Part shown: positions 1 through 57,265 of the stretch, one piece after another
Layout: each line of letters opens with the position of its first letter
Position numbering within the stretch: the first letter of the stretch is position 1
DNA from: Escherichia coli
Lineage (GTDB): Bacteria; Pseudomonadota; Gammaproteobacteria; Enterobacterales; Enterobacteriaceae
Assembly (NCBI RefSeq): GCF_044647545.1
Contig: NZ_CP172818.1
Direction: 5' to 3' (one strand)
DNA: 64,000 bases
Translations under genes and position numbers: made by a program
The notes under the pieces: generated by a model
Databases searched by the model: none
Told to the model about the DNA's origin: nothing
What the model saw: the letters and a program-made list of their open reading frames with translations, nothing else

Positions 1-1008
<1,008 letters not shown>

Positions 1009-1027
1009 CTCGCACTTTATTAACAAG

Positions 1028-1052
1028 CTAAAAAGGCGCCGAAGCGCCTTTA
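1028..1052. terminator. Bidirectional rho-independent terminator between convergent bglA and gcvP
   Basis: GC hairpin aggcgcc-gaa-gcgcct with A-run on one side and T-rich on the other. Confidence 0.6.
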
Positions 1053-1073
1053 GAAGATAGTCGAATCAGTGAA

Positions 1074-3947
1074 TTACTGGTATTCGCTAATCGGTACGCA
1101 GGAGCAGAACAGGTTACGGTCGCCGTAAACATCATCCAGACGTTTCACTGTCGGCCAGTATTTGTCTGCCACGCCTGCCGGGAATACCGCAACTTCACGG
1201 CTGTACGGATGCGCCCACTCGGCGACCAGTTCGCTCTGAATGTGCGGCGCGTTCACCAGCGGGTTATCTTCCAGCGGCCAGACACCGGCTTTCACCTGGT
1301 CAATTTCTGCGCGGATAGCCAGCATCGCGTCGATAAAGCGATCCAGTTCCACTTTGCTTTCAGATTCAGTCGGTTCAACCATCAGCGTACCCGCCACCGG
1401 GAACGACATGGTCGGCGCGTGGAAACCGTAGTCGATCAGACGCTTGGCAATATCCAGTTCGCTGATGCCGGTTTCTTCTTTCAGCGGGCGAATATCGAGA
1501 ATACATTCGTGCGCCACGCGACCGTCGCGACCGGTATACAGCACCGGGAAGGCATCCTGCAGGCGGCTGGCAATATAGTTGGCGTTAAGAATTGCCACCT
1601 GGCTTGCTTTTTTCAGCCCTTCTGCGCCCATCATGCGGATGTACATCCAGCTGATTGGCAGAATGGATGCGCTACCGAACGGTGCCGCAGAAACCGCGCC
1701 CTGACGGGTTAACATGCCTTCAATTTGTACCACGCTATGACCTGGCACAAACGGTGCCAGATGCGCTTTCACGCCGATCGGTCCCATACCAGGGCCGCCG
1801 CCACCGTGCGGAATGCAGAAAGTTTTATGCAGGTTAAGGTGCGAGACGTCCGCGCCAATAAAGCCCGGTGAGGTGATGCCGACCTGGGCGTTCATGTTCG
1901 CGCCATCAAGGTAAACCTGACCGCCGAACTGATGCACGACTTCACACACTTCACGGATCGTTTCTTCATACACGCCGTGGGTGGAAGGATAGGTCACCAT
2001 GATACAGGAGAGGTTATCGCCCGCCTGTTCCGCTTTCGCGCGCAGATCAGTCAGATCGATGTTGCCGTTTTTATCACACGCCACAACCACCACCTGCATT
2101 CCTGCCATATGTGCAGAAGCGGGGTTAGTTCCGTGCGCAGAAGCCGGGATCAGGCAGATATCACGATGCCCTTCGTTGCGGCTTTCATGATAATGACGAA
2201 TCGCCAGCAGGCCCGCGTATTCGCCCTGTGCGCCAGAGTTCGGCTGCATACAAACGGCGTCGTAACCGGTCAGTTTCACCAGCCAGTCAGCCAGCTGCGC
2301 AATCATCTGCTGATAACCTTCGGCCTGCTCCGGCGGGCAGAACGGGTGCAGTTCGGCAAATTCCGGCCAGGTGATTGGGATCATCTCGGCGGCGGCGTTC
2401 AGTTTCATGGTGCAGGAACCCAGCGGGATCATCGCCTGATTCAGCGCCAGATCTTTACGCTCCAGCGAGTGCATATAGCGCATCATTTCGGTTTCGCTGT
2501 GGTAGCGATTAAACACCGGATGGGTGAGGATTTCGACGTCGCGCAGCATCGCAGGCTGAATAGAGCGGCTGTCGTGAGCCACGTCTTTGTCCAGCGTGTC
2601 GATGTCCAGGCCGTGGTTATCCCCCAGCAGTACGCTGAAAAGCTGCATCACGTTTTCACGCGTGGTGGTTTCATCAAGGGTGATCCCAACCGCGTTCAGG
2701 ATATCGCTACGCAGGTTGATTTCAGCCGCTTCGGCACGCGCCAGTACGCCCGCCTTGTCTGCCACTTCCACACACAAAGTGTCGAAATAGTGCGCATGAC
2801 GCAGTTTCAGACCTTTTTGTTGCAGGCCCGCCGCCAGGATATCGGTCAGACGGTGGATGCGGTTAGCGATACGTTTCAGGCCAACCGGGCCGTGATAAAC
2901 GGCATACAGGCTGGCGATGTTTGCCAGCAGTACCTGGGAAGTACAAATGTTGGAGTTCGCTTTCTCACGGCGAATATGTTGCTCGCGAGTCTGCATCGCC
3001 ATGCGCAGAGCGGTATTGCCAGCTGCATCTTTCGATACACCGATAATACGGCCCGGCATTGAGCGTTTGTATTCATCTTTCGCCGCAAAGAATGCTGCGT
3101 GTGGGCCACCGTAGCCCATCGGCACACCGAAGCGTTGCGCCGAACCAAAGACAATATCCGCGCCCTGTTTACCCGGCGCAGTTAACAGCACCAGCGCCAT
3201 AATATCGGCGGCGACACTGACCACAATTTTGCGTGATTTCAGTTCGCTGATGAGCGCAGTGTAGTCGTGGATTTCACCGGTTGTGCCAACCTGCTGTAAC
3301 AGCACGCCGAAGACGTCCTGATGGTCGAGCACTTTTTGCGCGTCATCGACAATCACTTCAAAACCAAAGGTTTCAGCACGAGTACGGACCACATCGAGCG
3401 TTTGCGGATGAACGTCAGAAGCAACGAAGAAGCGGTTGGCATTTTTCAGTTTGCTGACGCGTTTCGCCATCGCCATTGCTTCGGCGGCAGCAGTGGCCTC
3501 GTCCAGAAGAGAGGCAGAGGCCATATCCAGCCCGGTCAAATCCAGCGTTACCTGCTGGAAGTTGAGCAGTGCTTCAAGGCGGCCCTGGGAGACTTCAGGT
3601 TGATACGGAGTATACGCGGTATACCAGCCCGGATTTTCCAGCATGTTACGCAGAATAACCGGCGGTAGCTGCACGGCGGTGTAACCCATGCCGATGTAAG
3701 ACGTGAAGCGTTTATTGCGACTGGCAATAGCCTTGAGTTCCGCCAGCGCGGCGTATTCGGTCGCCGGTGCGCCAACCTGCGGCGGGGTCGCAAGCTGAAT
3801 ATCTTTCGGCACAATCTGGCCGGTCAGCGCGTTTAACGATTGTGCGCCAACGGCATTCAGCATTTCTTGCTGTTGCGCGGCGTCCGGTCCGATATGGCGT
3901 TCAATAAAAGCGCCGCTGTTTTCAAGCTGGCTTAACGTCTGTGTCAT
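1074..3947 (-). CDS. gcvP: Glycine dehydrogenase (decarboxylating), glycine cleavage P-protein
   Basis: 957-aa product from canonical start [10 protein letters not shown] (ORF track extends further upstream in frame); PLP-dependent P-protein sequence. Confidence 0.95.
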
Positions 3948-4065
3948 GAGCGATGGTTCCTGAAACGTGCAGTGAATTGTGAACCTCTCTCCTTGCGAAG
4001 AGAGTGAGGGTGAGGCGTAAAAGTTCCTCACCCTGATCCTCTCCCGCAGAAGAGGAATAAAGCCG

Positions 4066-4455
4066 TTACTCGTCTTCTAACAATGCTTCGTATGCGGTCG
4101 CATCCAGCAGTGATTCCAGTTCGCTTTCATCGCTGGCTTTGATTTTAAAGATCCAGCCGCCTGCATACGGTTCGCTGTTCACCAGTTCCGGGGAATCGCT
4201 CAGTGCGTCGTTTACCGCCACGATTTCACCGCTTACTGGCGCATAAATGTCTGACGCCGCTTTTACTGATTCGGCAACCGCGCAGTCATCGCCCGCGCTA
4301 ACCGTTGCGCCCACTTCCGGCAGGTCAACAAACACCATATCGCCTAACAGCTCCTGGGCATGTTCGGTGATACCAACGGTGTAAGTGCCGTCGGCTTCTT
4401 TACGCAGCCATTCGTGTTCTTTGCTGTATTTCAGTTCTGCTGGTACGTTGCTCAT
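4066..4455 (-). CDS. gcvH: Glycine cleavage system H protein (lipoyl carrier)
   Basis: 129-aa product [16 protein letters not shown]..., lipoyl-lysine region [19 protein letters not shown]. Confidence 0.95.
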
Positions 4456-4478
4456 CAATCAATCTCCAAAAAAGTAAA

Positions 4479-5573
4479 TCACGCGACGGCTTTACCGTTA
4501 CGCACAAAAACAGGTTTCGTCACTTTAACCGGCATTTCACGGTTGCGAATTTGTACAATCGCTGTTTCACCAATACCTTCCGGCACGCGCGCCAGCGCAA
4601 TGCTGTAACCCAGCGTCGGGGAGAAAGTACCGCTGGTGATAATGCCTTCATGCTGGTTGCCCTGCGCATCGGTAAAGCGTACCGGCAGTTCATTACGCAG
4701 CACGCCTTTTTCGGTCATCACCAGACCAACCAGTTTTTCTGTGCCATGCTCACGCTGCACTTCCAGGGCTTCACGACCGATGAAGTCACGATCTGCCGGT
4801 TCCCAGGCGATAGTCCAGCCCATATTGGCGGCTAAAGGAGAGATGGTTTCGTCCATCTCCTGACTATAAAGATTCATACCCGCTTCCAGACGCAGCGTGT
4901 CACGCGCGCCCAGGCCGCATGGCTTAACGCCCGCTTCCACCAGCGCGCGCCAGAAATCCGCCGCTTTTTCATTGGGCAGCGCAATTTCATAGCCCGCTTC
5001 ACCGGTATAACCAGTGGTGGCAATAAACAGATCGCCCGCCTGCACGCCAAAGAACGGTTTCATCCCTTCCACCGCCTGACGCTGGGCGTCATTAAACAGT
5101 GTGGCAGCTTTTGCCTGCGCATTCGGCCCTTGTACGGCGATCATGGAAAGGTCATCACGAACGGTAATTTCGATGCCGAAAGGTTCAGCGTGTTGGGTAA
5201 TCCAGGAGAGGTCTTTTTCGCGGGTGGCGGAGTTAACAACGAGGCGGAAGAAATCTTCAGTAAAGTAGTAGACGATGAGGTCATCTATCACACCGCCAGA
5301 GGCATTCAACATCCCCGAGTAAAGGGCTTTGCCGCTTTTGGTGAGTTTCGCCACATCGTTCGCCAGCAGATAACGCAGAAACTCCCGAGTGCGGCTGCCG
5401 CGAAGATCGACGATGGTCATATGTGACACATCAAACATTCCGGCATCGGTACGTACCGCATGATGTTCGTCGATTTGCGAACCGTAATGCAGCGGCATCA
5501 TCCAGCCGTGGAAATCCACCATGCGAGCGCCGCAAAGCGTGTGTTGTTCGTACAAAGGAGTCTGTTGTGCCAT
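4479..5573 (-). CDS. gcvT: Aminomethyltransferase, glycine cleavage T-protein
   Basis: 364-aa product from [13 protein letters not shown]...; ORF track includes an in-frame upstream extension that I do not call. Confidence 0.95.
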
Positions 5574-6020
5574 CTTGTCCTCATTGAATAAGCGGGGCTG
5601 ACAACTTTTCCATGGCGAAATTATCACCACGAAACCCAGCATCGGAGCCACTCCCGGTCCCCAACGCAATCGTTCTCTTTTGCCTGAACTTACCACCGAA
5701 ACAGACTGTTAACCATAAGGTAAAATTGATCATCACATTAGCTTATGGTTAAAAAATGCAAAAATCGCAACAGAATAAAAAACCAAAAAATGAACAAATC
5801 TCTATATAAAGATAAACAGATGAGAAAGTTAATTTGATTAATGCAATATTAAGAACTAAAAAAATGTCAAAAAACACTAAATCAAAAAATCATGACATTA
5901 GAAAATATAATGCGAAAACGGAGGTGAAATTAGTTTATTTCAAATGAGGAAAATCTCCCGGCGAAAAAACCGGGAGATGAAAGTGTGATGGGTATCAAAT
6001 AAACAACAGAGGAGAAATTT
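5574..6020 (-). promoter_or_regulatory. gcvTHP promoter/upstream regulatory region (AT-rich, ~450 bp)
   Basis: Long AT-rich non-coding interval upstream of gcvT; in E. coli this region carries GcvA/Lrp/CRP/PurR sites (not individually mapped here). Confidence 0.5.
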
Positions 6021-7223
6021 TTAACGCAGCCATTCAGGCAAATCGTTTAATCCCATTGCCTGGCGGATAAGTTGTGGTTTAACGCCAGGAAGCGTGTCGG
6101 CCAGTTTTAAACCAATATCACGCAGCAATTTTTTCGCCGGATTGGTACCGGAAAACAGATCGCGGAATCCCTGCATACCAGCCAGCATCAGCGCCGCACT
6201 GTGCTTACGGCTACGCTCATAGCGACGCAGGTAAATGTACTGCCCGATGTCTTTACCCTGACGATGCAACCGTTTCAGTTCAGCAATCAGCTCTGCAGCA
6301 TCCATAAAGCCGAGATTTACCCCCTGCCCCGCCAGCGGGTGAATAGTATGCGCGGCGTCGCCCACCAGCGCCAGACGGTGTGCGGCAAACTGGCGCGCAT
6401 AACGCCCCGTTAGCGGGAACACCAGGCGCTCACTTTCAACCTTGCATAAGCCCAGGCGATTATCAAAAGCGATATTTAACGCGCGATTAAATTCGTCTTC
6501 GCCTGCCTGCTGCATCCGCTGCGCTTCCTCTGGCGACAGTGACCAGACAATCGAGCAAAGATGCGGATCGCTAAGCGGCAAAAAGGCCAGAATGCCTTCG
6601 CCATGAAAAACCTGCCGCGCCACCGCATCATGCGGTTCTTCCGTGCGAATGGTCGCTACCAGCGCGTGATGCTGATAATCCCAGAAAGTCAGCGGAATAT
6701 CGGCTTTGTTGCGCAACCAGGAATTAGCGCCGTCCGCGCCAATCACCAGACGCGCCGTTAACATACTGCCATCTTTCAACGTCAGGAAGGTTTCATTTTC
6801 TCCCCAGGCGACCTGCTGTAATTCTGCGGGGGCCAACAGAGTGATATCTGACGACTGCTGCGCTTTGTTCCACAGCGCGTAGTGAATCACCGAGTTTTCA
6901 ACGATATGCCCAAGATGGCTATAGCCCATGCTTTGATCGTCAAACGAAATGTGACCAAAACTGTCTTTGTCCCACACTTCCATACCGTGATAACAACTGG
7001 CCCTACGAGAGAGAATGTCCTGCCAGACGCCAAGACGGGTGAGTAATTTTTCGCTGGCGGCATTGATAGCCGAAACGCGCAGTTGTGGTGGTGCATCCGC
7101 CGCCAGAGGTTCCGGTACGCGCTGCTCCAGTACGGCAACGCGTAAGCCGCTACCCTGCAAGCCGCAGGCAACCGCCAGCCCCACCATGCCGCCGCCAACA
7201 ATGGCTACATCAACACTTTGCAT
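6021..7223 (-). CDS. ubiI: FAD-dependent 2-octaprenylphenol hydroxylase
   Basis: 400-aa product with N-terminal FAD-binding GGGMVG motif; matches VisC/UbiI. Confidence 0.9.
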   Translation of the reverse strand: MQSVDVAIVGGGMVGLAVACGLQGSGLRVAVLEQRVPEPLAADAPPQLRVSAINAASEKLLTRLGVWQDILSRRASCYHGMEVWDKDSFGHISFDDQSMGYSHLGHIVENSVIHYALWNKAQQSSDITLLAPAELQQVAWGENETFLTLKDGSMLTARLVIGADGANSWLRNKADIPLTFWDYQHHALVATIRTEEPHDAVARQVFHGEGILAFLPLSDPHLCSIVWSLSPEEAQRMQQAGEDEFNRALNIAFDNRLGLCKVESERLVFPLTGRYARQFAAHRLALVGDAAHTIHPLAGQGVNLGFMDAAELIAELKRLHRQGKDIGQYIYLRRYERSRKHSAALMLAGMQGFRDLFSGTNPAKKLLRDIGLKLADTLPGVKPQLIRQAMGLNDLPEWLR

Positions 7224-7245
7224 TGTTTATTCCTTAAAACCGCCT

Positions 7246-8424
7246 TCAACGCGCCACCCACCCGAGGGTGCGCTGCGCCAGCACATCGCGTGCTGGGGTG
7301 AATAATTCCATTGCCATCAGCCCGATGTTGCGCCCGACAACCAGCGGCCCCCAACGGTTGGCAAAAAGATGTACAAGGCTGTCCGTGACGCCGATGGTTG
7401 CTTCGCGATCGCGCTGTCGACGCTGCTGATAACGGCACAATACGCCGTAATCACCCATGTCTTCTCCGCGCTCCTGCGCCTGAGTCAGGGTTTCCGCAAG
7501 GCTCATGACATCTCGCATACCGAGGTTGAACCCTTGCCCGGCAATCGGGTGCAGAGTTTGCGCCGCATTGCCCACCAGCACGGTACGATGGGTAATAGGT
7601 CTGGCGGCGCGGGTTAACGCCAGCGGATAAGCACTGCGTTTACCAGCGTGGGTAATTTTCCCAAGTCGCCAACCAAAGGCCGACTGGAGTTCACGGCAAA
7701 ACTTCTCGTCGCTCCAAGACAGTACCTCTTCGCGCCGTTCCAGTGGATGACACCAGACCAGCGAACAGCGTCCGTCAGACATCGGCAACATCGCCAGCGG
7801 GCCATATTGTGTAAAGCGTTCAAAAGCGCGCCCTTCATGCGCAACGGAAGTCGCAACGTTGGCAATCACAGCCAGTTGTTCGTAAGGCTCCTGCTGCCAG
7901 TCAACGCCGCACACGGTGGCTAACGCTGAATGGGTGCCATCAGCGGCTACCAGCACGCAGCCCGTCAGCGTCTCGCCACTCTCCAGCGTCACTTCAACGT
8001 GACTCTGAGTACGGGCAACGTTAGCCACGCGATCAGGACAATGCAGCGTTACGCCAGGTGCTTTGCGCAGCAATGCAAACAGCCGTTGCCCGACATTATG
8101 CAATTCGACAACCTGCCCCAGCGCCGCCAGTTGGTAATCTTCTGCGGCGAGGGTGACGAATCCGGCATGACCACGATCGCTGACATGCACGGTAGTGATG
8201 GCGGTTGCGCAATCAGCCAGAGATTGCCAGACGCCGATGCGCGCCAGTTGCTGACAGGTACCCGCCGCCAGCGCAATAGCCCGTCCATCAAAGCCCGGAT
8301 GAGCATGTGACTCTGGCGCAGTCGCTTCAATCAAATGTACCGGCAGCGCCCCGTGACTTAACCGGGAAATAGCCAGCGCCAGCGTCGCGCCCGCCATGCC
8401 GCCACCGACGATGATTACGCTCAT
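7246..8424 (-). CDS. ubiH: 2-octaprenyl-6-methoxyphenol hydroxylase
   Basis: 392-aa FAD monooxygenase, N-terminal IVGGGMAG; matches UbiH. Confidence 0.9.
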   Translation of the reverse strand: MSVIIVGGGMAGATLALAISRLSHGALPVHLIEATAPESHAHPGFDGRAIALAAGTCQQLARIGVWQSLADCATAITTVHVSDRGHAGFVTLAAEDYQLAALGQVVELHNVGQRLFALLRKAPGVTLHCPDRVANVARTQSHVEVTLESGETLTGCVLVAADGTHSALATVCGVDWQQEPYEQLAVIANVATSVAHEGRAFERFTQYGPLAMLPMSDGRCSLVWCHPLERREEVLSWSDEKFCRELQSAFGWRLGKITHAGKRSAYPLALTRAARPITHRTVLVGNAAQTLHPIAGQGFNLGMRDVMSLAETLTQAQERGEDMGDYGVLCRYQQRRQRDREATIGVTDSLVHLFANRWGPLVVGRNIGLMAMELFTPARDVLAQRTLGWVAR

Positions 8425-9746
8425 TGCTTTCTCGCAGCAGCCATCAACGCTTCGATTTCTTCCGGCTTTTTCACCACGCTGGCGGTGAGGTTTTCGTTGC
8501 CGGTTTCGGTAATCACAATGTCGTCTTCAATACGAATGCCGATACCGCGATATTGTTCTGGCACTTCTGCATCCGGCGCAATATACAGACCAGGCTCTAC
8601 GGTCAGTACCATCCCCGGTTCCAGAATACGCGAGCGATCCTGACCATAAACACCAACGTCATGAACATCCAGTCCTAACCAGTGGCTAAGGCCATGCATA
8701 AAGAAAGGACGATGGGCGTTCTGAGCGATCAGTTCATCAACATCACCTTTCAGGATGCCGAGTTTTACCAGGCCGCTAACCATGATGCGCACCACTTCAC
8801 CAGTGACTTCCTGCATGGAAGTTCCCGGACGATACAGCCGCAGGCTGGTTTCAAGAGACTCCAGCACAATGTCGTAGATTTCACGCTGGGCCAGGGTGAA
8901 TTTGCCGTTGACCGGGAAGGTGCGGGTAATATCGCCCGCGTAACCTTTGTATTCACAACCCGCGTCAATCAACACCAGGTCACCGTCGCGCAGTTCACTC
9001 TCGTTTTCGGTGTAGTGCAGAATGCAGCCATTTTCACCGCTGCCGACAATGGTGTTATAGGAAGGATAGCGCGCACCGTGGCGGTTAAATTCGTGGTGAA
9101 TTTCGCCTTCCAGGTGGTACTCGAACATTCCCGGACGGCATTTTTCCATCGCCCGGGTATGCGCCAGGGCGGTGATTTCCCCCGCGCGGCGAAGTACGGC
9201 AATCTCTTCTGGTGATTTGAACAGGCGCATTTCATGAACAATGGGACGCCAGTCGATCATCGTTGCCGGGGCAGTGAGATTCTGTCGCGAGCCTTTACGC
9301 AGCTTTTCCAGCGCGCTGTTCACGATTTCATCAGCATAGGTATATTCGCCCTGAGCGTGATAAACCACATCCAGACCATTAAGCAGTTGATAAAGTTGCT
9401 GATTGATTTCGCTGAATGCCAGTGCGCGGTCAACGCCCAGTTTCTCTGGCGCGGCATCCTGGCCTAAGCGACGACCAAACCAGATCTCTGCCGTCAGGTC
9501 GCGAACGCGGTTAAACAAAACGCTGTGGTTATGAGTGTCGTCGCTTTTAATCAGCACCAGCACCGCTTCCGGTTCGTTAAAGCCGGTGAAGTACCAGAAG
9601 TCACTGTTCTGACGATAGGGGTATTCGCTGTCGGCGCTACGTGTTACTTCTGGTGCAGCAAAAATCAGCGCGGCGCTGCCGGGTTGCATTTGCTCCACCA
9701 GGGCCTGACGGCGACGCTGAAACTCTTGCCGGGATATCTCACTCAT
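8421..9746 (-). CDS. pepP: Xaa-Pro aminopeptidase (aminopeptidase P)
   Basis: 441-aa product from MSEISRQEFQRRRQAL; M24 family; 4-bp overlap with ubiH. Confidence 0.95.
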   Translation of the reverse strand: MSEISRQEFQRRRQALVEQMQPGSAALIFAAPEVTRSADSEYPYRQNSDFWYFTGFNEPEAVLVLIKSDDTHNHSVLFNRVRDLTAEIWFGRRLGQDAAPEKLGVDRALAFSEINQQLYQLLNGLDVVYHAQGEYTYADEIVNSALEKLRKGSRQNLTAPATMIDWRPIVHEMRLFKSPEEIAVLRRAGEITALAHTRAMEKCRPGMFEYHLEGEIHHEFNRHGARYPSYNTIVGSGENGCILHYTENESELRDGDLVLIDAGCEYKGYAGDITRTFPVNGKFTLAQREIYDIVLESLETSLRLYRPGTSMQEVTGEVVRIMVSGLVKLGILKGDVDELIAQNAHRPFFMHGLSHWLGLDVHDVGVYGQDRSRILEPGMVLTVEPGLYIAPDAEVPEQYRGIGIRIEDDIVITETGNENLTASVVKKPEEIEALMAAARKQ

Positions 9747-9771
9747 AACACTCTCCTTACGTTTTTTGTTT

Positions 9772-10350
9772 TTAGTGTAGAGTCGGTTTTTGTACTTCTG
9801 GCGCGGTCGGTTGCGGATGAGTAAAGGTGTCGTGGCATAACAGCGCGGCAACACGAACGTATTCGATGATCTCTTCAAGCGACATTTCAAGCTCTTCCTG
9901 ATCTTCGTCTTCGTCGTAGCCCAGCTGCGCGATGTTACGCAGATCGTCGATGGCTTCACCGGTTTCTCCGGTCACTTTGTCCAGCTTCGGTTGCGTAACG
10001 CCAAGACCAAGCAGGAAGTGATTGACCCAACCTGCCAGCGCATCAGCCCGATCGAAAACGCTGACATCATCGCCATCAGGCAGATAAAGCTGAAAAAGGA
10101 AGCCGTCATCCTGCAGGGCATCGCTGGTGGCAGAGTGCATTTTACGCAGTGCCTGTGCCAGCTCATGACCGAAAGCCATGCCTTCGTTCGTCAGGTCGTG
10201 AAGTAGCGGCAGCCATGAGCTGTCATCGTTACCGCCACATATCATCCCACTGATTAAACCATGCATCTCAGCAGGGGTCAGACCCGTCCCTTGTTGGTTC
10301 AGATACTGGTTCATTTCGTTGTAACCAGGCATTTCGTTCTGTATAGACAT
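9772..10350 (-). CDS. ygfB: UPF0149 family protein YgfB
   Basis: 192-aa product [15 protein letters not shown]... Confidence 0.85.
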
Positions 10351-10451
10351 AAGCATTCGTCGTCAAAGGGAGGAATATTCATGATATGCTACCACTTTGG
10401 GCCCTGGTGGACCAGAAAAGGGCTTGTCTCTTCTCATCAGGGTAGCTATAG

Positions 10452-10847
<396 letters not shown>

Positions 10848-10888
10848 CACTTTTCGGTTTACTGTGGTAGAGTAACCGTGAAGACAAA

Positions 10889-11072
10889 ATTTCTCTGAGA
10901 TGTTCGCAAGCGGGCCAGTCCCCTGAGCCGATATTTCATACCACAAGAATGTGGCGCTCCGCGGTTGGTGAGCATGCTCGGTCCGTCCGAGAAGCCTTAA
11001 AACTGCGACGACACATTCACCTTGAACCAAGGGTTCAAGGGTTACAGCCTGCGGCGGCATCTCGGAGATTCC
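10889..11072 (+). ncRNA. ssrS: 6S RNA (RNA polymerase sigma70-holoenzyme regulator)
   Basis: Sequence atttctctgagatgttcgcaagcgggccagtcccctgagccgatatttcatacc...ggagattccc recognised as E. coli 6S RNA; -10-like tagagtaacc just upstream. Confidence 0.9.
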
Positions 11073-11146
11073 CTTCTTATCTGGCACCAGCCATGACGCA
11101 ACTACCCGAACTCCCACTGACATTATCCCGACAAGAAATCCGCAAA

Positions 11147-11695
11147 ATGATTCGGCAACGTCGTCGTACGTTAACGCCGGAACAACAGCAGGAAATGGGT
11201 CAACAAGCCGCTACCCGGATGATGACTTATCCCCCGGTGGTGATGGCACATACGGTCGCTGTATTCCTCTCTTTTGATGGCGAACTCGACACCCAGCCAC
11301 TCATAGAACAACTCTGGCGCGCCGGTAAGCGCGTATATCTTCCAGTTTTGCATCCCTTTAGTGCCGGTAATTTGCTGTTCCTGAATTACCATCCGCAAAG
11401 CGAACTGGTGATGAACAGGTTGAAGATCCATGAGCCAAAACTGGATGTGCGTGACGTGCTACCCCTTTCCCGATTAGACGTGTTGATCACACCGCTGGTC
11501 GCCTTTGATGAGTACGGTCAGCGCCTGGGAATGGGCGGTGGTTTTTATGATCGGACCTTACAAAACTGGCAGCACTATAAAATGCAACCGGTGGGTTATG
11601 CGCATGATTGTCAGTTGGTGGAAAAACTCCCCGTTGAAGAGTGGGATATCCCTCTTCCTGCGGTGGTTACACCGTCGAAAGTCTGGGAGTGGTAA
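11147..11695 (+). CDS. ygfA: 5-formyltetrahydrofolate cyclo-ligase
   Basis: 182-aa product MIRQRRRTLTPEQQQEMGQQAA...; lies immediately downstream of ssrS (ORF track shows a longer in-frame ORF overlapping 6S RNA). Confidence 0.85.
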   Translation: MIRQRRRTLTPEQQQEMGQQAATRMMTYPPVVMAHTVAVFLSFDGELDTQPLIEQLWRAGKRVYLPVLHPFSAGNLLFLNYHPQSELVMNRLKIHEPKLDVRDVLPLSRLDVLITPLVAFDEYGQRLGMGGGFYDRTLQNWQHYKMQPVGYAHDCQLVEKLPVEEWDIPLPAVVTPSKVWEW

Positions 11696-11754
11696 GGGCG
11701 ACACACCTGCATCGCCCTGATTGACATCGTTGATTCTTTAACCTAATTTAGTGA

Positions 11755-11897
11755 GTAAGGGTAAGGGAGGATGACTCCTCCCCTGAGACTGACTGTTAAT
11801 AAGCTGGGAAACTTATGAGTAACAGTACAATCAGTATGATGACAAGTCGCATCATAACCCTTCTCCTTCAAGCCCTCGCTTCGGTGAGGGCTTTACC
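11755..11897 (+). ncRNA. sibC: SibC antitoxin sRNA antisense to ibsC (boundaries approximate)
   Basis: Antisense to ibsC; ends at intrinsic terminator hairpin gccctcgc-ttcg-gtgagggc followed by ttt (11872-11894). Confidence 0.55.
11796..11855 (-). CDS. ibsC: Type I toxin IbsC (19-aa hydrophobic peptide)
   Basis: Minus-strand translation gives MMRLVIILIVLLLISFPAY*; too short for the ORF track. Confidence 0.8.
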   Translation of the reverse strand: MMRLVIILIVLLLISFPAY

Positions 11898-12030
11898 GTT
11901 ACAGCCCCATGCTGCCCTGCCATCGTAAATCCCCATTAAATAAACACAACGCATTGATCTGACTTTGATTTATTTTCTGGAGCAGACTCGCAAAGTAGAA
12001 TGCGCAATGCGGCAACGGTGTGGAGAAGGG

Positions 12031-12063
12031 ATAAAAAAATCGGGCAAGTCAGTGACCTGCCCG
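12031..12063 (-). terminator. Rho-independent terminator downstream of serA
   Basis: Hairpin cgggcaagtcagtgacctgcccg; on the minus strand it is followed by a T-run (plus-strand ataaaaaaat). Confidence 0.65.
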
Positions 12064-12084
12064 TTAATTTTCAGAGAAGGGGAA

Positions 12085-13317
12085 TTAGTACAGCAGACGG
12101 GCGCGAATGGTACCCGGAATAGCTTTCATTGCCTGCAGCGCTTTTTCGGCAACGTCTTCGTCGGCTTCAATATCAATAACTACATAACCCATCTGGGCGG
12201 AAGTTTGTAGATATTGCGCGGCGATGTTGACGCCCTGCTCGGCAAAAATTTTGTTGAGCGCAGTTAGCACGCCCGGACGGTTTTCGTGGATGTGCATCAG
12301 ACGACGCCCACCGTGCAGTGGCAGCGAGACTTCCGGGAAGTTCACCGCAGAGAGCGTTGAGCCATTGTCAGAATACTTGATCAATTTACCCGCAACTTCC
12401 AGGCCGATATTCTCCTGCGCTTCCTGAGTCGAACCGCCAATGTGTGGCGTCAGAAGGACGTTGTCGAATTCACACAGCGGAGAGGTAAATGGATCGCTAT
12501 TGGTTGCCGGTTCCGTCGGGAATACGTCGATTGCCGCCCCCGCCAGATGTTTGCTCGCCAGCGCGTCACACAGCGCCGGAATATCCACCACAGTACCGCG
12601 CGAAGCATTAATCAGCAGCGAGCCGGGCTTCATTAGTGAAATCTCTTTCGCACTCATCATATTTTTGGTGGACGGATTCTCTGGTACATGCAGACTCACC
12701 ACATCGCTCATATTCAGCAGGTCAGAAAGATGCTGTACCTGAGTGGCGTTGCCCAGCGGCAGTTTGTTTTCAATATCATAAAAGTAAACATACATTCCCA
12801 GCGATTCAGCCAGAATGCCCAATTGAGTACCAATATGACCATAGCCGATGATACCCAGCTTTTTGCCGCGCGCTTCAAAAGAACCCGCCGCCAGTTTGTT
12901 CCACACGCCACGGTGCGCTTTAGCATTGGCTTCCGGCACGCCGCGCAATAGCAGCAGCAGTTCGCCAATCACCAGCTCCGCAACAGAGCGCGTATTTGAG
13001 AACGGTGCGTTAAATACCGGGATACCGCGTTTTGCCGCCGCATCCAGATCAACCTGGTTTGTTCCGATACAGAAACAGCCAATAGCGACCAGTTTTTCTG
13101 CGGCGTTGATCACGTCTTCAGTCAGATGGGTACGGGATCGCAGGCCGATGAAGTGGGCATCGCGGATGGATTCTTTTAATTGTTCATCATCCAGCGCGCC
13201 TTTGTGAAATTCGATGTTGGTGTAACCCGCTGCACGAAGGCTTTCAAGCGCCTTTTGGTGCACGCCTTCTACCAGCAGAAACTTAATCTTGTCTTTCTCC
13301 AGCGATACCTTTGCCAT
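12085..13317 (-). CDS. serA: D-3-phosphoglycerate dehydrogenase
   Basis: 410-aa product MAKVSLEKDKIKFLLVEGVHQ... with C-terminal ACT domain. Confidence 0.95.
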   Translation of the reverse strand: MAKVSLEKDKIKFLLVEGVHQKALESLRAAGYTNIEFHKGALDDEQLKESIRDAHFIGLRSRTHLTEDVINAAEKLVAIGCFCIGTNQVDLDAAAKRGIPVFNAPFSNTRSVAELVIGELLLLLRGVPEANAKAHRGVWNKLAAGSFEARGKKLGIIGYGHIGTQLGILAESLGMYVYFYDIENKLPLGNATQVQHLSDLLNMSDVVSLHVPENPSTKNMMSAKEISLMKPGSLLINASRGTVVDIPALCDALASKHLAGAAIDVFPTEPATNSDPFTSPLCEFDNVLLTPHIGGSTQEAQENIGLEVAGKLIKYSDNGSTLSAVNFPEVSLPLHGGRRLMHIHENRPGVLTALNKIFAEQGVNIAAQYLQTSAQMGYVVIDIEADEDVAEKALQAMKAIPGTIRARLLY

Positions 13318-13572
13318 TTACCCAATCCTGTCTTTTGAAATGTTGTGTGCGGATTTGCATCCGCCTTTCAACATATCAAAAAATAATATTGCGGCAATAT
13401 GAACGTTTGCGTCGCGATGTTGAGGAAATATCACGCAAAGGTATTTCTTGGATGAATATGCTGGTTTAGAGGATTTATTTAGAGCAATCGACAATAGCCA
13501 GGTAAAAACGTGACACATGTCACCAAATTTAATGAAGAGAATTTTTTTAACGGGGGAGGTTCCCCCGTCAGA

Positions 13573-14232
13573 TCATTTCACAATGGTTTTGACACCGTCA
13601 GGTGTGCCAATCAGCGCAACGTCCGCGCCACGGTTAGCAAACAAGCCAACAGTCACCACGCCAGGAATCGCATTTATGGCGTTTTCCATCGCTATCGGGT
13701 CAAGGATTTCCATGCCGTGGACGTCGAGGATCACGTTGCCGTTATCGGTCACCACGCCCTGACGGTATTCCGGACGACCGCCCAGTTTCACCAGCTGGCG
13801 CGCCACTGCACTACGTGCCATCGGGATAACTTCTACTGGCAGCGGGAATTTGCCCAGAATATCAACCTGCTTGGAGGCGTCGGCAATACAGATAAATTTT
13901 TCCGCAACCGAAGCAATGATTTTTTCACGGGTCAGCGCCGCGCCGCCGCCTTTGATCATTTGCATGTGGCCGTTGATTTCATCTGCGCCATCAACGTAGA
14001 TGCCAAGGCTGTCGACTTCGTTGAGATCAAAAACGTGAATGCCGAGGCTTTTCAGTTTTTCAGTGGAAGCATCTGAACTGGAAACGGCCCCTTCAATCTG
14101 GCCTTTCATTGTACCGAGCGCGTCAATAAAGTGTGCGGCGGTGGAACCTGTACCTACACCAACAATGGTGCCGGGCTGAACATACTGAAGTGCCGCCCAT
14201 CCTACTGCTTTTTTCAATTCATCCTGGGTCAT
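13573..14232 (-). CDS. rpiA: Ribose-5-phosphate isomerase A
   Basis: 219-aa product [32 protein letters not shown]... Confidence 0.95.
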
Positions 14233-14287
14233 GATCGTTTCGCCTGTGGTATGAAATTTCACACGCATTATATACAAAAAAAGCGAT

Positions 14288-14518
14288 TCAGACCCCGTTG
14301 GCAAGCCGCGTGGTTAACTCATCCATAAAATATCGCGCAATGGCGGGCATCCCCTTTCGCCCGGCAAATAAAGCATACAACGGTCTGGGTATGCCGCTCC
14401 ACGGTGCAAACAGGCGCACCAGTTCACCGTTCGCAAGCCCCTGTTTACAGGCAAATTGAGGCAATAACGCCACGCCATTCAACCCAACCGGGACGCGAAC
14501 TCGCCGAGCAAAATGCAT
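14288..14518 (-). pseudogene. yqfE: C-terminal fragment of a LysR-family regulator
   Basis: 76-aa ORF resembling only the C-terminal tail of a LysR-type effector domain; no N-terminal HTH portion upstream. Confidence 0.6.
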
Positions 14519-14845: not shown

Positions 14846-15528
14846 CCCCTCTGTTTAACGGAAGCATGGAATTATTCCATGCTCCTCTGCCAAAATGAAA
14901 TAAAAAATGAAAAAAGCTAATCTTACAGGTACGTTGGTTTGCTTTGTCGCATGCCTTATTTTTTTGTCGTCCGGTGATATTTTTCGTGAAAAGCCAATCG
15001 CTCTAATATGGTTCCTTCGACAAAACATACTCTTTTTTACGGGAACTCTTGCGTGGTGTCTGATGACGCTGACGATGTGTTTATCGTTGCGTTCATCATG
15101 GCTTAACAAAGTGCTGGGCGGTCTGGATAAAGTATGGCGAATCACATAAGTGGGCAGGAATATGCGCCATAGCGTTTGCTTTCGCCCACTGGCTGGATGA
15201 AAAATTACCCCAGTTATTCGTCGCCTTTGGCTGGCTTACTCACCCTGGTAAAATCGTTGATATTAACCTGACGCCAGTACAAGAAAATTGGCTTCATGCG
15301 GGACTGTTAGCGGGTGAATGCGCAATGTTTATTATTATAGCGATGGTTTGCGTATCTCTTAGCAAAAGAGTTCCCTATCATTTATTTCATCTTGTTCACC
15401 GTTTGTTCCCCGTCTTTTATCTGGCAATTGCCTTTCATGTGTTTACTGCTTTGTTTAAATCATACTGGTGGAACTCCTGCTGCGTATTTATTAATTTTAA
15501 TTACTATTCCGGGCGTCTTTGCGGCTTT

Positions 15529-15537
15529 CATTTCGCT
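15529..15537. repeat. Left copy of 9-bp target-site duplication (catttcgct) flanking IS1
   Basis: Identical 9-mer directly abuts both IS1 ends. Confidence 0.85.
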
Positions 15538-36779: not shown

Positions 36780-37321
36780 TGAATTCTCACCTGTCGGCTA
36801 TTTTCTCCTTACCTCATGTGACATATTCCCCATTTTACTCAAAAAAAATTTATATAAAAGCACCTTTTTCATAAACCTTATTTCCCCCAAAAAAATCTTT
36901 TTTTATCCCTTTGGGCGTTTTTCCTGTTTTTTCCCCCTTTTTTTCTTTTTTACCCCTTAAAAAAAGGAACGCGGCATTTTTTTGCCCTACGAAAAAATCG
37001 TAAAATTTGCCGAGCCGGGTCTGGGTTTTAAGATCCCGTTTTTGAAAAGGGGAAAAAAATTTCCACCCGTAATAAGGCGGGGGTTTATCAGGGATTAAAG
37101 CCTTCAACCCCCCACCAGAAACCGGCAAAAAAAAAAATTGAGTGAGCTTCCACATAAAAAATTCAGAAAAAGGCGCGGTTTATACCACCTACAACACCAT
37201 TGAAGCATTAAAAGATCGTCTGATTGTCCGTCAGTTGCCAACTCAACTGGAGAATTCCCATATACATACAACTACAAAACAACAAACATAAACAAAACCC
37301 ACAAAAAAAAATATCTCTAAA
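36780..37321. other. Compositionally aberrant homopolymer-rich non-coding segment (origin unresolved; possible assembly/synthetic artefact)
   Basis: Dense runs of A7-11, T5-9, C5-6, G5; no credible ORF, RBS or RNA fold; cmtB-tktA spacer is ~885 bp here versus a few hundred bp as I recall for K-12. Confidence 0.5.
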
Positions 37322-41425: not shown

Positions 41426-41528
41426 AAGGGTTGGATTTGCGAAACACAAGTATGCGCTAATTATCGCCTTAAATGAAAAGAGGGCCGCATCAAGGACTAA
41501 CACAGGTCCCATACCACCAAACTCCAAC

Positions 41529-43542
<2,014 letters not shown>

Positions 43543-56075: not shown

Positions 56076-57265
56076 TCATTAATGCCGCATGCGGCGTTAA
56101 TCACTTCTATAATAAATATAATTATATATTAAACATATATTAAAATAACACAACAATAATATTCTTCAATCAAAAATAAACAAAAACACACGATGAACCG
56201 AACAACATGCAAAAACAAATCACATCTCAAAAATTTATAACACTCTTCCCCTCCAACAACGAAAACAAAGAAAAATACGTTAAAAAACAAAAAATATCGA
56301 AACAGAAAAACGAAAAAAAAATAAAGTAATGAATCACCACACGAGAACAAGAAAAAAACAACAAAATATATACTAATAACACAGTAGGAAAGGAATAAGA
56401 ATCAACAAAGAAATTTTTACCATCATCAAACGATAACAAACAACCGAAGAGGGAGATAGTTGCCACACCGACACAGAACATCTCTCCACATCACAACAAT
56501 AACAGGTAGCGGAGCACCCCCAATAACCAAAACACAGACCCATACTTGACAACCAGAACAAAAAAACACAACGACAAAAACCAAACAACGAAGAATGAAA
56601 AATGATAAAGAAGAAATTGAATAATTAACACTATCACCCCTACATCAAACTAGAAAAGAAATCGTTGTTAGATATGCGCGGTGTGGTGGTCCTGTGATGC
56701 GCGAACTAGGCGTGACGCCTTTTCTGTCGCCGTCATGCTTGCTCTGGTTGTATGCGTAGTCTGATAAGACGCTCCAAACCACAAAAGCACAGCATCCCAT
56801 TCAGACCAAAGAAGGTTATGATTGCCGGCATTTTCTACCGCTGTCAACGTCTCATCTTGTTATAACTGGATTACTGATACCGCCCTCAAACGTGTTAATT
56901 GTTTTTCCCTACACTGCGCGTTTCTAGCACGCTATTAGCGGGATATGCAAGGGACTAAGAGTCGCGGTAAAAACCGGCATATCAAACGCGGCTACCCGCT
57001 TCAGAAAAAGCAACCTCCAGGCCTAAAGCGTTCGACCTACCAAGTTCTCGTCAAGGCGGCATCGGCGGCATTTTACGCAACGAAGGCCGATCTTCACAAT
57101 TATGATTACCGGGAATAAAATCGCGATTTACCCAAACGATCGAACGGTTACAAATAATTCGCACCGCAAACCAACAATCCAAAAACTAGGATTCAAACCC
57201 ACCAAATAAAAAAAAAAAAAAAAAGGAAAAACAAAAAAAAAAACAACAAAAAAAAAAAAAAGAAA
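56076..57265. other. ~1.2 kb non-coding segment of aberrant composition: A/C-rich block (~56100-56640), ORF-free block with REP-like fragment (~56640-57180), A-rich tail (57181-57265)
   Basis: Strong strand-asymmetric A+C bias with very little G/T in the first block; runs A17, A11, A14 abutting yggM stop; only low-complexity ORFs in the track; hemW-yggM spacer is <100 bp in K-12 as I recall. Confidence 0.5.

What the first reader, a model, noticed from the sequence alone, without database searches (positions are those of the whole stretch)
11755..11897. ibsC/SibC type I toxin-antitoxin locus in the ygfA-serA spacer
A 19-codon minus-strand ORF encodes MMRLVIILIVLLLISFPAY, the hydrophobic Ibs-type membrane toxin. 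It is fully overlapped by a plus-strand region ending in a strong intrinsic terminator, consistent with the SibC antisense RNA. It is easily missed because the ORF is far below any length cutoff. This is a known system, included for completeness; the P-for-S difference near the C-terminus relative to the K-12 IbsC I remember is unverified.
Basis: partly seen in the sequence, partly recalled or inferred. Interest (0 to 1): 0.3.

Follow-up and report, generated by a model that had tools for sequence, protein, structure and literature searches.

The report
Known ibsC/sibC toxin-antitoxin locus
This is the already well-described E. coli ibsC/sibC pair, a 19-residue membrane toxin gene silenced by an overlapping antisense RNA, and its proline-for-serine change from strain K-12 is simply the commonest natural allele.

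Summary
The observation and the interpretation both hold. Window 11796..11855 (-) encodes MMRLVIILIVLLLISFPAY. It lies wholly inside an antisense RNA gene on the + strand. Rfam SIB_RNA scores 136.5 bits there (gathering score 56, E=5e-28). The curated K-12 record maps sibC to 11757..11897 and ibsC to 11796..11855. The locus sits in the fau(ygfA)-serA spacer and is 100% identical to E. coli FDAARGOS_497, where RefSeq names the same peptide IbsC.

The Pro-for-Ser difference is real. Codon 17 is CCA instead of K-12 AGC, so all three bases differ. It is not rare: the CCA allele is in 2,789 of 5,426 complete E. coli genomes (51%), and the K-12 allele is in 2,165 (40%).

The changed triplet is SibC G49-C50-U51. 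It lies in the apical loop of hairpin P5, within TRD1, the domain Han et al. 2010 showed sets target specificity. Toxin and antitoxin are encoded on opposite strands of the same DNA, so they stay fully complementary. TRD2 is unchanged.

One claim needs softening. The "strong terminator" is a strong hairpin (-17.8 kcal/mol) followed by only three U.

Verdict: already known, low interest. Separately, the window carries odd A-rich degenerate patches elsewhere, for example 56109..57265.

The parts
11721..11749 (+). Putative sibC promoter: -35 TTGACA (11721-11726), 17-nt spacer, -10 TAATTT (11744-11749), 7 nt before the mapped K-12 5' end
   Evidence: Read directly from the sequence. It is included in the 5' part of the Rfam SIB_RNA model match. 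It is identical to K-12 except for one spacer base at 11740. The consensus promoter scan did not list it because the -10 matches only 3 of 6. sigma-S binding at the K-12 sibC promoter is reported in PMC4447067.
11757..11897 (+). sibC antitoxin RNA, 141 nt
   Evidence: The K-12 ncRNA sibC b4446 coordinates were transferred through an indel-free alignment. Rfam SIB_RNA scores 136.5 bits. The MFE is -55.3 kcal/mol with z=-4.9, and the dot-bracket structure is the same as for K-12 SibC. The consensus fold of 8 Sib RNAs has 9 pairs with compensatory changes.
11796..11855 (-). ibsC toxin ORF, 19 codons plus TAA: MMRLVIILIVLLLISFPAY
   Evidence: Translation. It is identical to the CDS annotated as ibsC (WP_071525914.1) in FDAARGOS_497 and differs from K-12 IbsC only at residue 17.
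11802..11824 (+). TRD1 of SibC (+46..+68), the P5 hairpin and its loop, complementary to ibsC codons 11-18
   Evidence: Positions come from Han et al. 2010, PMC2943612, mapped from +1 = 11757. The 8-nt apical loop is predicted.
11805..11807 (.). Variable triplet: TGG here and GCT in K-12 on the Sib strand (SibC 49-51), which is ibsC codon 17, CCA (Pro) here and AGC (Ser) in K-12
   Evidence: Alignment. Among 10 Ibs genes compared, codon 17 has 7 different codons and 5 amino acids, the most variable position in the ORF. Han et al. changed exactly G49CU51 to UGC to redirect SibC to ibsD.
11855..11871 (+). TRD2 of SibC (+99..+115), complementary to the ibsC start codon and Shine-Dalgarno region
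   Evidence: Positions from PMC2943612. This stretch is identical to K-12.
11863..11868 (-). ibsC Shine-Dalgarno AAGGAG, 7 nt before the ATG
   Evidence: Read from the sequence. Identical to K-12.
11870..11897 (+). SibC 3' hairpin P7 (10 bp, UUCG loop) followed by UUUACC; transcript end
   Evidence: Folds at -17.8 kcal/mol, z=-5.05. The K-12 annotated 3' end falls here. Han et al. call it the 'P7 transcription terminator stem'. Four pairs in this stem covary among paralogs. The T-run-based scan did not call it.
11915..11949 (-). Inferred ibsC promoter and start: -35 TTGTGT (11949..11944), 16-nt spacer, -10 TACGAT (11927..11922), start near 11915
   Evidence: This is an inference. Han et al. 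report a 159-nt ibsC mRNA with an 18-nt 5' overhang beyond SibC in the full duplex, and conserved promoter elements upstream. 11897 + 18 = 11915. The hexamers were read from the sequence, which is identical to K-12 here.

Best explanation
This is the chromosomal ibsC/sibC type I toxin-antitoxin pair of E. coli, present as a single copy in the fau(ygfA)-serA spacer.

The minus strand gives an mRNA of about 160 nt. It carries a strong Shine-Dalgarno sequence and a 19-codon ORF for the hydrophobic inner-membrane peptide IbsC. The plus strand gives the 141-nt SibC RNA, which covers the whole ORF and its ribosome-binding site and is therefore perfectly complementary to the mRNA.

SibC first contacts the mRNA through two exposed elements. 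TRD1 is the P5 loop and pairs inside the ORF around codon 17. TRD2 is the single-stranded J1/7 segment and pairs over the start codon and SD. Pairing then spreads, translation is blocked, and the duplex is degraded, so the toxin is not normally made. If IbsC is made, it inserts in the inner membrane, dissipates membrane potential and lowers ATP, and growth stops.

The allele here differs from K-12 in the three bases of codon 17 (Ser AGC to Pro CCA), which are SibC G49CU51 to UGG in the TRD1 loop. Both partners are read from the same DNA, so they change together and the pair stays matched.

Shown here: the sequence anatomy, family membership of the RNA and the peptide, synteny, allele frequencies, and the position of the change in the predicted loop. 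Taken from K-12 and Salmonella experiments in the literature and inferred for this allele: transcription of both strands, toxicity, and repression.
For: ORF translation. Rfam SIB_RNA at 136.5 bits against a gathering score of 56. 100% identity of the spacer to FDAARGOS_497, where the CDS is annotated ibsC. The K-12 curated sibC and ibsC features map onto 11757..11897 and 11796..11855. Within sibC only 5 bases differ from K-12: 11773-74 in the P2 loop and 11805-07. The predicted SibC fold is identical for both alleles, with the triplet in the 8-nt P5 loop. The consensus fold of 8 Sib RNAs shows 9 covarying pairs. Outside codons 3 and 17, variable sites fall 6/2/9 over codon positions 1/2/3 and all replacements are hydrophobic-for-hydrophobic, as expected of a translated peptide. 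TRD1/TRD2 mapping, the G49CU51 swap experiment, the 159-nt mRNA, and RNase III cleavage of the duplex are in PMC2943612. Depolarisation within minutes, loss of viability, alpha-helix confirmation, and the need for residues 6-19 are summarised in PMC8309996. Salmonella IbsA binds Fo subunits a and b and lowers ATP (bioRxiv 10.1101/2025.05.26.656083). The allele is in 2,789 of 5,426 genomes.
Against: Nothing in the sequence argues against it. The caveats are as follows. No expression or toxicity data exist for this allele. Pro at residue 17 lies in the C-terminal part that mutagenesis found important for IbsC toxicity (secondary source), so toxicity of the Pro form is assumed rather than shown. 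The consensus scans did not call either promoter or the terminator. The ibsC start site is transferred from K-12 plasmid fusions.
Confidence: 0.95

Rival explanations
1. The Pro17 form is a decayed, non-toxic allele. The helix-breaking proline in the C-terminal segment abolishes membrane activity, so the locus is now just an sRNA gene with a vestigial ORF.
For: The C-terminal residues 6-19 are reported as needed for IbsC toxicity (PMC8309996 summarising Mok et al. 2010). K-12 IbsB, which has Pro at the equivalent position, is annotated only as a 'putative' toxic peptide.
Against: The ORF, the SD and both TRDs are intact. Pro is also the native residue at this position in K-12 IbsE, annotated 'toxic peptide IbsE'. 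The allele is the commonest in E. coli at 51%. Position 17 naturally tolerates S, P, G, A and Q across family members. Even frame-shifted IbsC variants stay toxic (abstract of PMC7192591).
Confidence: 0.04
2. The ORF is incidental. The conserved element is only an sRNA (Sib) that acts on other targets, and the 19 codons are a by-product of the RNA sequence.
For: A 19-codon ORF is expected by chance many times in 64 kb. RNA-structure constraints overlap every codon, so coding and RNA constraints cannot be cleanly separated.
Against: All ten compared copies keep ATG-ATG, a strong SD, the same length and stop, and an unbroken hydrophobic core, despite 23 variable nucleotide sites. K-12 experiments show toxicity of the peptide and lethality of unrepressed ibs.
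Confidence: 0.01

Closest known systems
IbsC/SibC of E. coli K-12 MG1655 (b4665/b4446)
   Same: Same locus between fau and serA, and the same lengths (19 aa, 141 nt). It shares 136 of 141 SibC bases and 18 of 19 residues. The SD, TRD2, terminator hairpin and ibsC promoter region are identical, and the predicted SibC fold is identical.
   Different: Codon 17 is CCA (Pro) instead of AGC (Ser), which is SibC 49-51 UGG instead of GCU in the TRD1 loop. Two bases differ in the P2 loop (11773-74) and one base in the sibC promoter spacer. The window's allele is commoner in E. coli than the K-12 allele.
Paralogous Ibs/Sib pairs of K-12 (IbsA/SibA, IbsB/SibB, IbsD/SibD, IbsE/SibE)
   Same: Same architecture and same RNA family. 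The peptide pattern is MM-K/R-hydrophobic core-SF-x-A/T-Y. IbsB and IbsE also have Pro at the position equivalent to 17.
   Different: Different chromosomal sites (yegL-mdtA, yqiK-hldE). Over the 23 nt of TRD1 they differ from the window by 2 (SibD), 4 (SibE) and 7 (SibA) mismatches; SibB was not scored because it is one codon shorter. TRD2 also differs. The window's SibC TRD1 differs by one base (G51 against C51) from the engineered SibC1d that represses ibsD (primer C1d-F).
Tandem two-copy fau-serA loci of O111, O157:H7 and many other E. coli
   Same: Copy 1 in O111 RM9322 has the same TRD1 and the same Pro17 codon CCA.
   Different: Those strains carry a second ibs/sib unit about 390 nt further on, with Gly17 (GGA). 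The 65-nt core query gave 7,283 places in 5,422 genomes, so roughly one third of genomes have a second place, which was the tandem copy in the two loci inspected. The window has a single unit.
Salmonella IbsA/SibA
   Same: A 19-aa Ibs-family type I toxin that causes growth arrest and an ATP drop.
   Different: Different species and paralog. Its reported requirement for His3 and Leu11, and its targeting of Fo subunits a and b, have not been tested for IbsC.

Membership tests
Sib RNA family (Rfam RF00113 SIB_RNA) | Match to the family covariance model at or above the curated gathering score | tested here: met
   136.5 bits against a gathering score of 56, E=5.4e-28, full model 1-147. The Rfam model starts at the promoter (11721) and stops before the terminator (11871), so it is offset from the mapped transcript 11757..11897.
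Sib RNA family (Rfam RF00113 SIB_RNA) | Conserved secondary structure (P1, P2, P5, P6, terminator P7) supported by covariation | tested here: met
   The MFE fold has z=-4.9. The RNAalifold consensus of 8 Sib RNAs has 41 pairs, 9 of them with compensatory changes, mostly in P2, P5 and P7. The sample is small and the sequences are related.
Ibs/Sib type I toxin-antitoxin | A hydrophobic ORF of about 18-19 codons on the opposite strand, lying entirely within the Sib RNA gene, with its own SD | tested here: met
   ORF at 11796..11855 (-) inside sibC 11757..11897 (+), with AAGGAG 7 nt upstream.
Ibs/Sib type I toxin-antitoxin | Peptide homology to characterised Ibs toxins | tested here: met
   18 of 19 residues identical to K-12 IbsC. 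Identical to RefSeq WP_071525914.1, named IbsC by PGAP. Profile libraries could not be used because the tool requires at least 20 residues.
Ibs/Sib type I toxin-antitoxin | Orthologous position for ibsC/sibC (fau/ygfA-serA spacer, downstream of ssrS) | tested here: met
   6S RNA at 10889..11072, fau ending at 11695, serA at 12085..13317 (-).
Ibs/Sib type I toxin-antitoxin | Both target-recognition domains (TRD1, TRD2) complementary to the cognate mRNA | tested here: met
   The pair is cis-encoded, so complementarity is perfect by construction. TRD2 is identical to K-12. TRD1 carries the 3-nt change on both partners.
Ibs/Sib type I toxin-antitoxin | Both strands transcribed (SibC about 141 nt, ibsC mRNA about 160 nt) | not testable with these tools
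   Known only from K-12 northern blots and primer extension. The promoter regions here are identical to K-12 except for one spacer base.
Ibs/Sib type I toxin-antitoxin | Peptide toxic on overproduction, and toxicity repressed by the cognate Sib RNA | not testable with these tools
   Shown for K-12 IbsC-S17 and SibC (PMC2943612; PMC8309996). Not shown for the Pro17 allele.

The most novel reading that the evidence does not exclude
The codon-17/TRD1-loop triplet may be more than a paralog discriminator, as Han et al. 2010 proposed. It may be an intraspecific 'specificity barcode' that turns over by whole-triplet replacement within E. coli. The two major alleles differ at all three bases, and ten copies show seven codons. 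This turnover would keep the Sib/ibs pairs that share a cell orthogonal as copy number changes.

A corollary follows. The window's SibC (UGG) is one base from the engineered SibC1d (UGC) that represses ibsD. It could therefore cross-repress a K-12-type ibsD, and strains with this allele should carry a shifted D/E-locus barcode. In the one near-identical genome examined, FDAARGOS_497, this holds: the D/E-locus copy reads GTGGC there and lies 5 mismatches away over TRD1.
Probability: 0.2. Interest if true: 0.35.

Novelty: already known. Interest (0 to 1): 0.1.

Why it matters
It matters little beyond correct annotation. The locus is a textbook type I toxin-antitoxin pair, and the exact peptide is already named IbsC in RefSeq.

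Two small points are useful:
- The laboratory K-12 IbsC (Ser17), used in all toxicity, mutagenesis and peptide-design studies, is not the commonest natural form. Pro17 is in about half of complete E. coli genomes.
- The natural S/P polymorphism coincides with the three SibC bases shown experimentally to set TRD1 target specificity. Natural alleles therefore offer ready-made material for testing how cis-antisense pairs stay orthogonal.

PGAP-annotated genomes list ibsC but not the sibC RNA. The antitoxin half is therefore the part that routine annotation misses.

Tried and rejected
1. The consensus promoter/terminator scan over 11600..12150 found no promoter and only the serA terminator (12041..12063, -). 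This is uninformative. The sibC -10 matches only 3 of 6, and the SibC hairpin is followed by three U, which is below the scan's rule.

2. Fozo et al. 2008 (PMC2597788) and Mok et al. 2010 (PMC3009890) are not held. Their results are cited only through PMC2943612 and PMC8309996.

3. Pfam, NCBIfam and PADLOC scans of the peptide were not possible, because 19 aa is below the 20-residue minimum.

4. A crude regex for Ibs-like ORFs gave a second hit in the window, 56373..56426 (-), MMVKISLLILIPFLLCY. I rejected it. It has no Sib model hit and sits in a T-rich, C-poor low-complexity patch on that strand, where hydrophobic ORFs arise from composition alone.

5. I tested whether that A-rich patch is a one-type hypermutated copy of the TRAP operon by collapsing base pairs before alignment. 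The result was only noisy low-complexity hits, so it is inconclusive.

6. A search of the paper library for the exact Pro17 peptide string found nothing.

7. I did not locate the yegL-mdtA (sibA/B) locus of FDAARGOS_497. I could not intersect genome lists to test co-variation of the C-locus and D/E-locus barcodes, because the tool returns counts and at most 60 rows.

Full report
**The observation**

The sequence at the given coordinates is as described. The minus strand of window 11796..11855 reads ATG ATG CGA CTT GTC ATC ATA CTG ATT GTA CTG TTA CTC ATA AGT TTC CCA GCT TAT TAA. This translates to MMRLVIILIVLLLISFPAY. The ORF listing has a 20-aa floor and cannot show it. A 19-codon ORF is not significant on its own, so the case rests on what surrounds it.

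**Identity of the RNA**

A gathering-threshold scan of the whole window against Rfam gave two hits:
- 6S RNA at 10889..11072.
- SIB_RNA (RF00113, type 'antitoxin') at 11721..11871 on the + strand, at 136.5 bits against a gathering score of 56, E=5.4e-28, over the full model.

It is the only Sib unit in the 64 kb.

**Organism and locus**

The 389-nt spacer between the end of fau and the end of serA (11696..12084) matches 5,425 of 5,426 complete E. coli genomes, with ibsC annotated under the match. It is 100% identical to strain FDAARGOS_497. In that RefSeq record the CDS is ibsC, WP_071525914.1, 'type I toxin-antitoxin system toxin IbsC'.

In the curated K-12 MG1655 record the same spacer carries the ncRNA sibC (b4446, 141 nt) and the CDS ibsC (b4665) on opposite strands. 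The pairwise alignment has no indels in this stretch. K-12 sibC therefore maps to window 11757..11897 (+) and ibsC to 11796..11855 (-).

**Anatomy on the + strand**

- A TTGACA hexamer at 11721-11726, a 17-nt spacer and TAATTT at 11744-11749 precede the mapped 5' end by 7 nt. The consensus scan did not list this promoter because its -10 matches only 3 of 6.
- The 141-nt RNA folds at -55.3 kcal/mol, z=-4.9.
- The fold has a closing helix P1, a GC-rich hairpin P2, a long hairpin P5 with an 8-nt apical loop, hairpin P6, a single-stranded segment, and a terminal hairpin.
- An RNAalifold consensus of eight Sib RNAs recovers the same helices, with 9 of 41 pairs showing compensatory changes. The eight are this one, the five from K-12, the second copy from O111 and the yqiK-hldE copy from FDAARGOS_497.
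- The terminal hairpin (11870..11893) has 10 bp and a UUCG loop, and folds at -17.8 kcal/mol, better than all 200 shuffles. Only UUUACC follows it, so the T-run-based scan did not call it.
- The K-12 3' end is annotated exactly there, and Han et al. call it the P7 terminator stem.

**Anatomy on the minus strand**

- AAGGAG lies 7 nt before the ATG (11863..11868).
- Han et al. 2010 (PMC2943612) mapped the K-12 ibsC start by primer extension. They used a 159-nt mRNA whose duplex with SibC leaves an 18-nt 5' overhang. That places the start near 11915.
- The hexamers TTGTGT (11949..11944) and TACGAT (11927..11922) sit at the right distance from that start.
- This region is identical to K-12. The assignment is an inference by transfer.

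**The Pro-for-Ser difference**

K-12 IbsC is MMRLVIILIVLLLISFSAY, so the difference is real. At the DNA level, all three bases of codon 17 differ: AGC in K-12 and CCA here. On the Sib strand this is GCT against TGG at 11805..11807.

The only other differences inside sibC are two bases in the P2 loop (11773-74). The predicted SibC structure is identical for both alleles, with the triplet in the P5 apical loop.

The two sequences can also be related by a +2/-2 indel pair (TTC-CC-AGC-TTAT against TTC-AGC-GC-TTAT) instead of three substitutions. That is my reading of the sequence and was not tested.

**How common the allele is**

I used 33-nt queries centred on the triplet. Any 28-nt seed then has to span the triplet. 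The results were:
- The window allele is in 2,789 of 5,426 complete genomes, or 51%.
- The K-12 allele is in 2,165, or 40%.
- The rest carry other forms, such as CCG (Pro) in AH21G053 and Leu16-Pro17 in O157:H7.

The Pro form is thus the commonest natural IbsC allele, and K-12 carries the less common one.

**Functional meaning of the triplet**

Han et al. 2010 defined two independent target-recognition domains in SibC. TRD1 (+46..+68, the P5 loop) pairs inside the ORF. TRD2 (+99..+115, J1/7) pairs over the translation-initiation region. They showed that changing G49CU51 to UGC, together with or separately from a TRD2 swap, redirects SibC to ibsD.

With +1 at 11757, positions 49-51 are exactly 11805..11807. 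The natural allele here is UGG, one base from their engineered SibC1d (primer C1d-F). TRD2 (11855..11871) is unchanged.

Among ten Ibs genes compared, codon 17 is the most variable position, with 7 codons and 5 amino acids (S, P, G, A, Q). The rest of the peptide changes only conservatively. Because the RNA and the mRNA are read from the same duplex, the pair in this window remains perfectly matched.

**Mechanism**

I take the mechanism to be that established for K-12:
- SibC contacts the ibsC mRNA through TRD1 and TRD2.
- Pairing then spreads, translation initiation is blocked, and the duplex is cleaved.
- If IbsC is made, it forms a transmembrane helix, depolarises the inner membrane within minutes, and stops growth (PMC8309996).
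- For the Salmonella paralog IbsA, a 2025 preprint reports binding to Fo subunits a and b and inhibition of proton translocation.
- sigma-S RNA polymerase binds the K-12 sibC promoter (PMC4447067).

None of this was or could be tested for the Pro17 allele here.

**Rival readings**

*Decayed allele.* The main rival is that Pro17 inactivates the toxin. I give it about 4%. Pro is native at that position in IbsB and IbsE. The allele is the majority form. Every expression signal is intact. IbsC toxicity is reported to survive even frameshifts (abstract of PMC7192591).

*Incidental ORF.* The idea that the ORF is a by-product is contradicted by conservation across ten copies. All keep the start, length, stop, SD and hydrophobic character, despite 23 variable nucleotide sites.

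**Context and copy number**

O111 RM9322 and O157:H7 TX 265-1 carry two tandem ibs/sib units in this spacer, with Pro-type then Gly-type. The 65-nt core query gave 7,283 places in 5,422 genomes. Roughly one third of genomes therefore have a second place, which was the tandem copy in the two loci inspected. Copy-number variation of Ibs is already documented, with seven in O157:H7 Sakai (PMC2887945). The window has one unit.

FDAARGOS_497 also has only one unit between yqiK and hldE (MMKLVIILIVLLLVSFATY), where K-12 has ibsD and ibsE. Its TRD1 is 5 mismatches from the window's SibC. K-12 SibD would be only 2 away. This fits the idea that co-resident pairs stay distinct, but it is a single genome and could simply reflect clonal linkage.

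**Verdict**

The system is already known and already annotated in RefSeq, at least for the toxin half. Interest is low. The one addition is that the S/P difference is the major natural polymorphism of IbsC and coincides with the experimentally defined TRD1 specificity triplet.

**Outside the finding**

Comparing the whole window with FDAARGOS_497 shows long blocks of 100.000% identity, including 1011..14480, which holds this locus. These blocks are interrupted by deletions and by A-rich, G-poor degenerate patches at 37254..37312, 41475..41566 (ending in about 35 A), and 56109..56712 with 57140..57265. The last pair flanks an 80-83%-identical, indel-rich remnant of the TRAP transporter genes.

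No complete E. coli genome contains the 56-57 kb patch. Perfect flanks combined with locally garbled text is not what natural divergence produces. I suspect an assembly or gap-fill artefact, or some other corruption of the source sequence. This does not touch ibsC/sibC.

Noticed in passing
window 56076..57265: A 1.19-kb segment lies between hemW and yggM. It has A-rich, G-poor text (A 45-63%, G 2-13% per 100 nt) at 56109..56712 and 57140..57265. These tracts flank an 80-83%-identical, indel-rich remnant of the TRAP permease genes. FDAARGOS_497 has an intact 3.2-kb TRAP operon here and K-12 has only 154 nt. No complete E. coli genome matches the A-rich part, even with blastn. I suspect an assembly artefact or corrupted sequence.
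   Followed up: partly
window 37254..37312 and 41475..41566: Two more short A-rich fillers, the second ending in about 35 consecutive A. They replace about 490 nt of a prohibitin-family gene and about 900 nt holding a hypothetical-protein gene of FDAARGOS_497. The flanks are 99.8-100% identical, but 36833..37170 carries 75 clustered differences.
   Followed up: partly
window 1007..1011, 14480/14481, 15075..15537: Relative to FDAARGOS_497 there are three changes. About 100 nt are missing between bglA and gcvP. 1,346 nt are missing, covering a LysR regulator and the 5' part of an azoreductase gene. There are 463 extra nt where FDAARGOS_497 has an IS1, so the window probably shows the uninterrupted gene.
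   Followed up: no
window 56373..56426 (-): A 17-codon ORF, MMVKISLLILIPFLLCY, was picked up by a loose Ibs-like regex. It lies in the T-rich strand of the degenerate patch, has no Sib RNA match, and is most likely a compositional by-product.
   Followed up: yes
window 10889..11072 (+) and 10949..11695 (+): 6S RNA (ssrS) scores 139.8 bits just upstream of fau. The mechanical 248-aa ORF for fau runs back across ssrS. The annotated fau starts differ between K-12 (182 aa) and the PGAP records (200 aa).
   Followed up: no
L005 721..1172 (O111 RM9322) and L006 721..1173 (O157:H7 TX 265-1): Many E. coli carry two tandem ibs/sib units in the fau-serA spacer. Copy 1 has Pro17 (O157:H7 has Leu16-Pro17) and copy 2 has Gly17. 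By place counts, roughly a third of complete genomes have a second place.
   Followed up: partly
L011 23830..23889 (FDAARGOS_497, yqiK-hldE spacer): There is only one ibs unit here (MMKLVIILIVLLLVSFATY), where K-12 has ibsD and ibsE. Its TRD1 loop reads GTGGC, which is distinct both from K-12 SibD/E and from the window's SibC.
   Followed up: partly
RefSeq records under window 11757..11897: PGAP-annotated genomes list the ibsC CDS but no sibC ncRNA feature. Only the curated K-12 record carries sibC.
   Followed up: no
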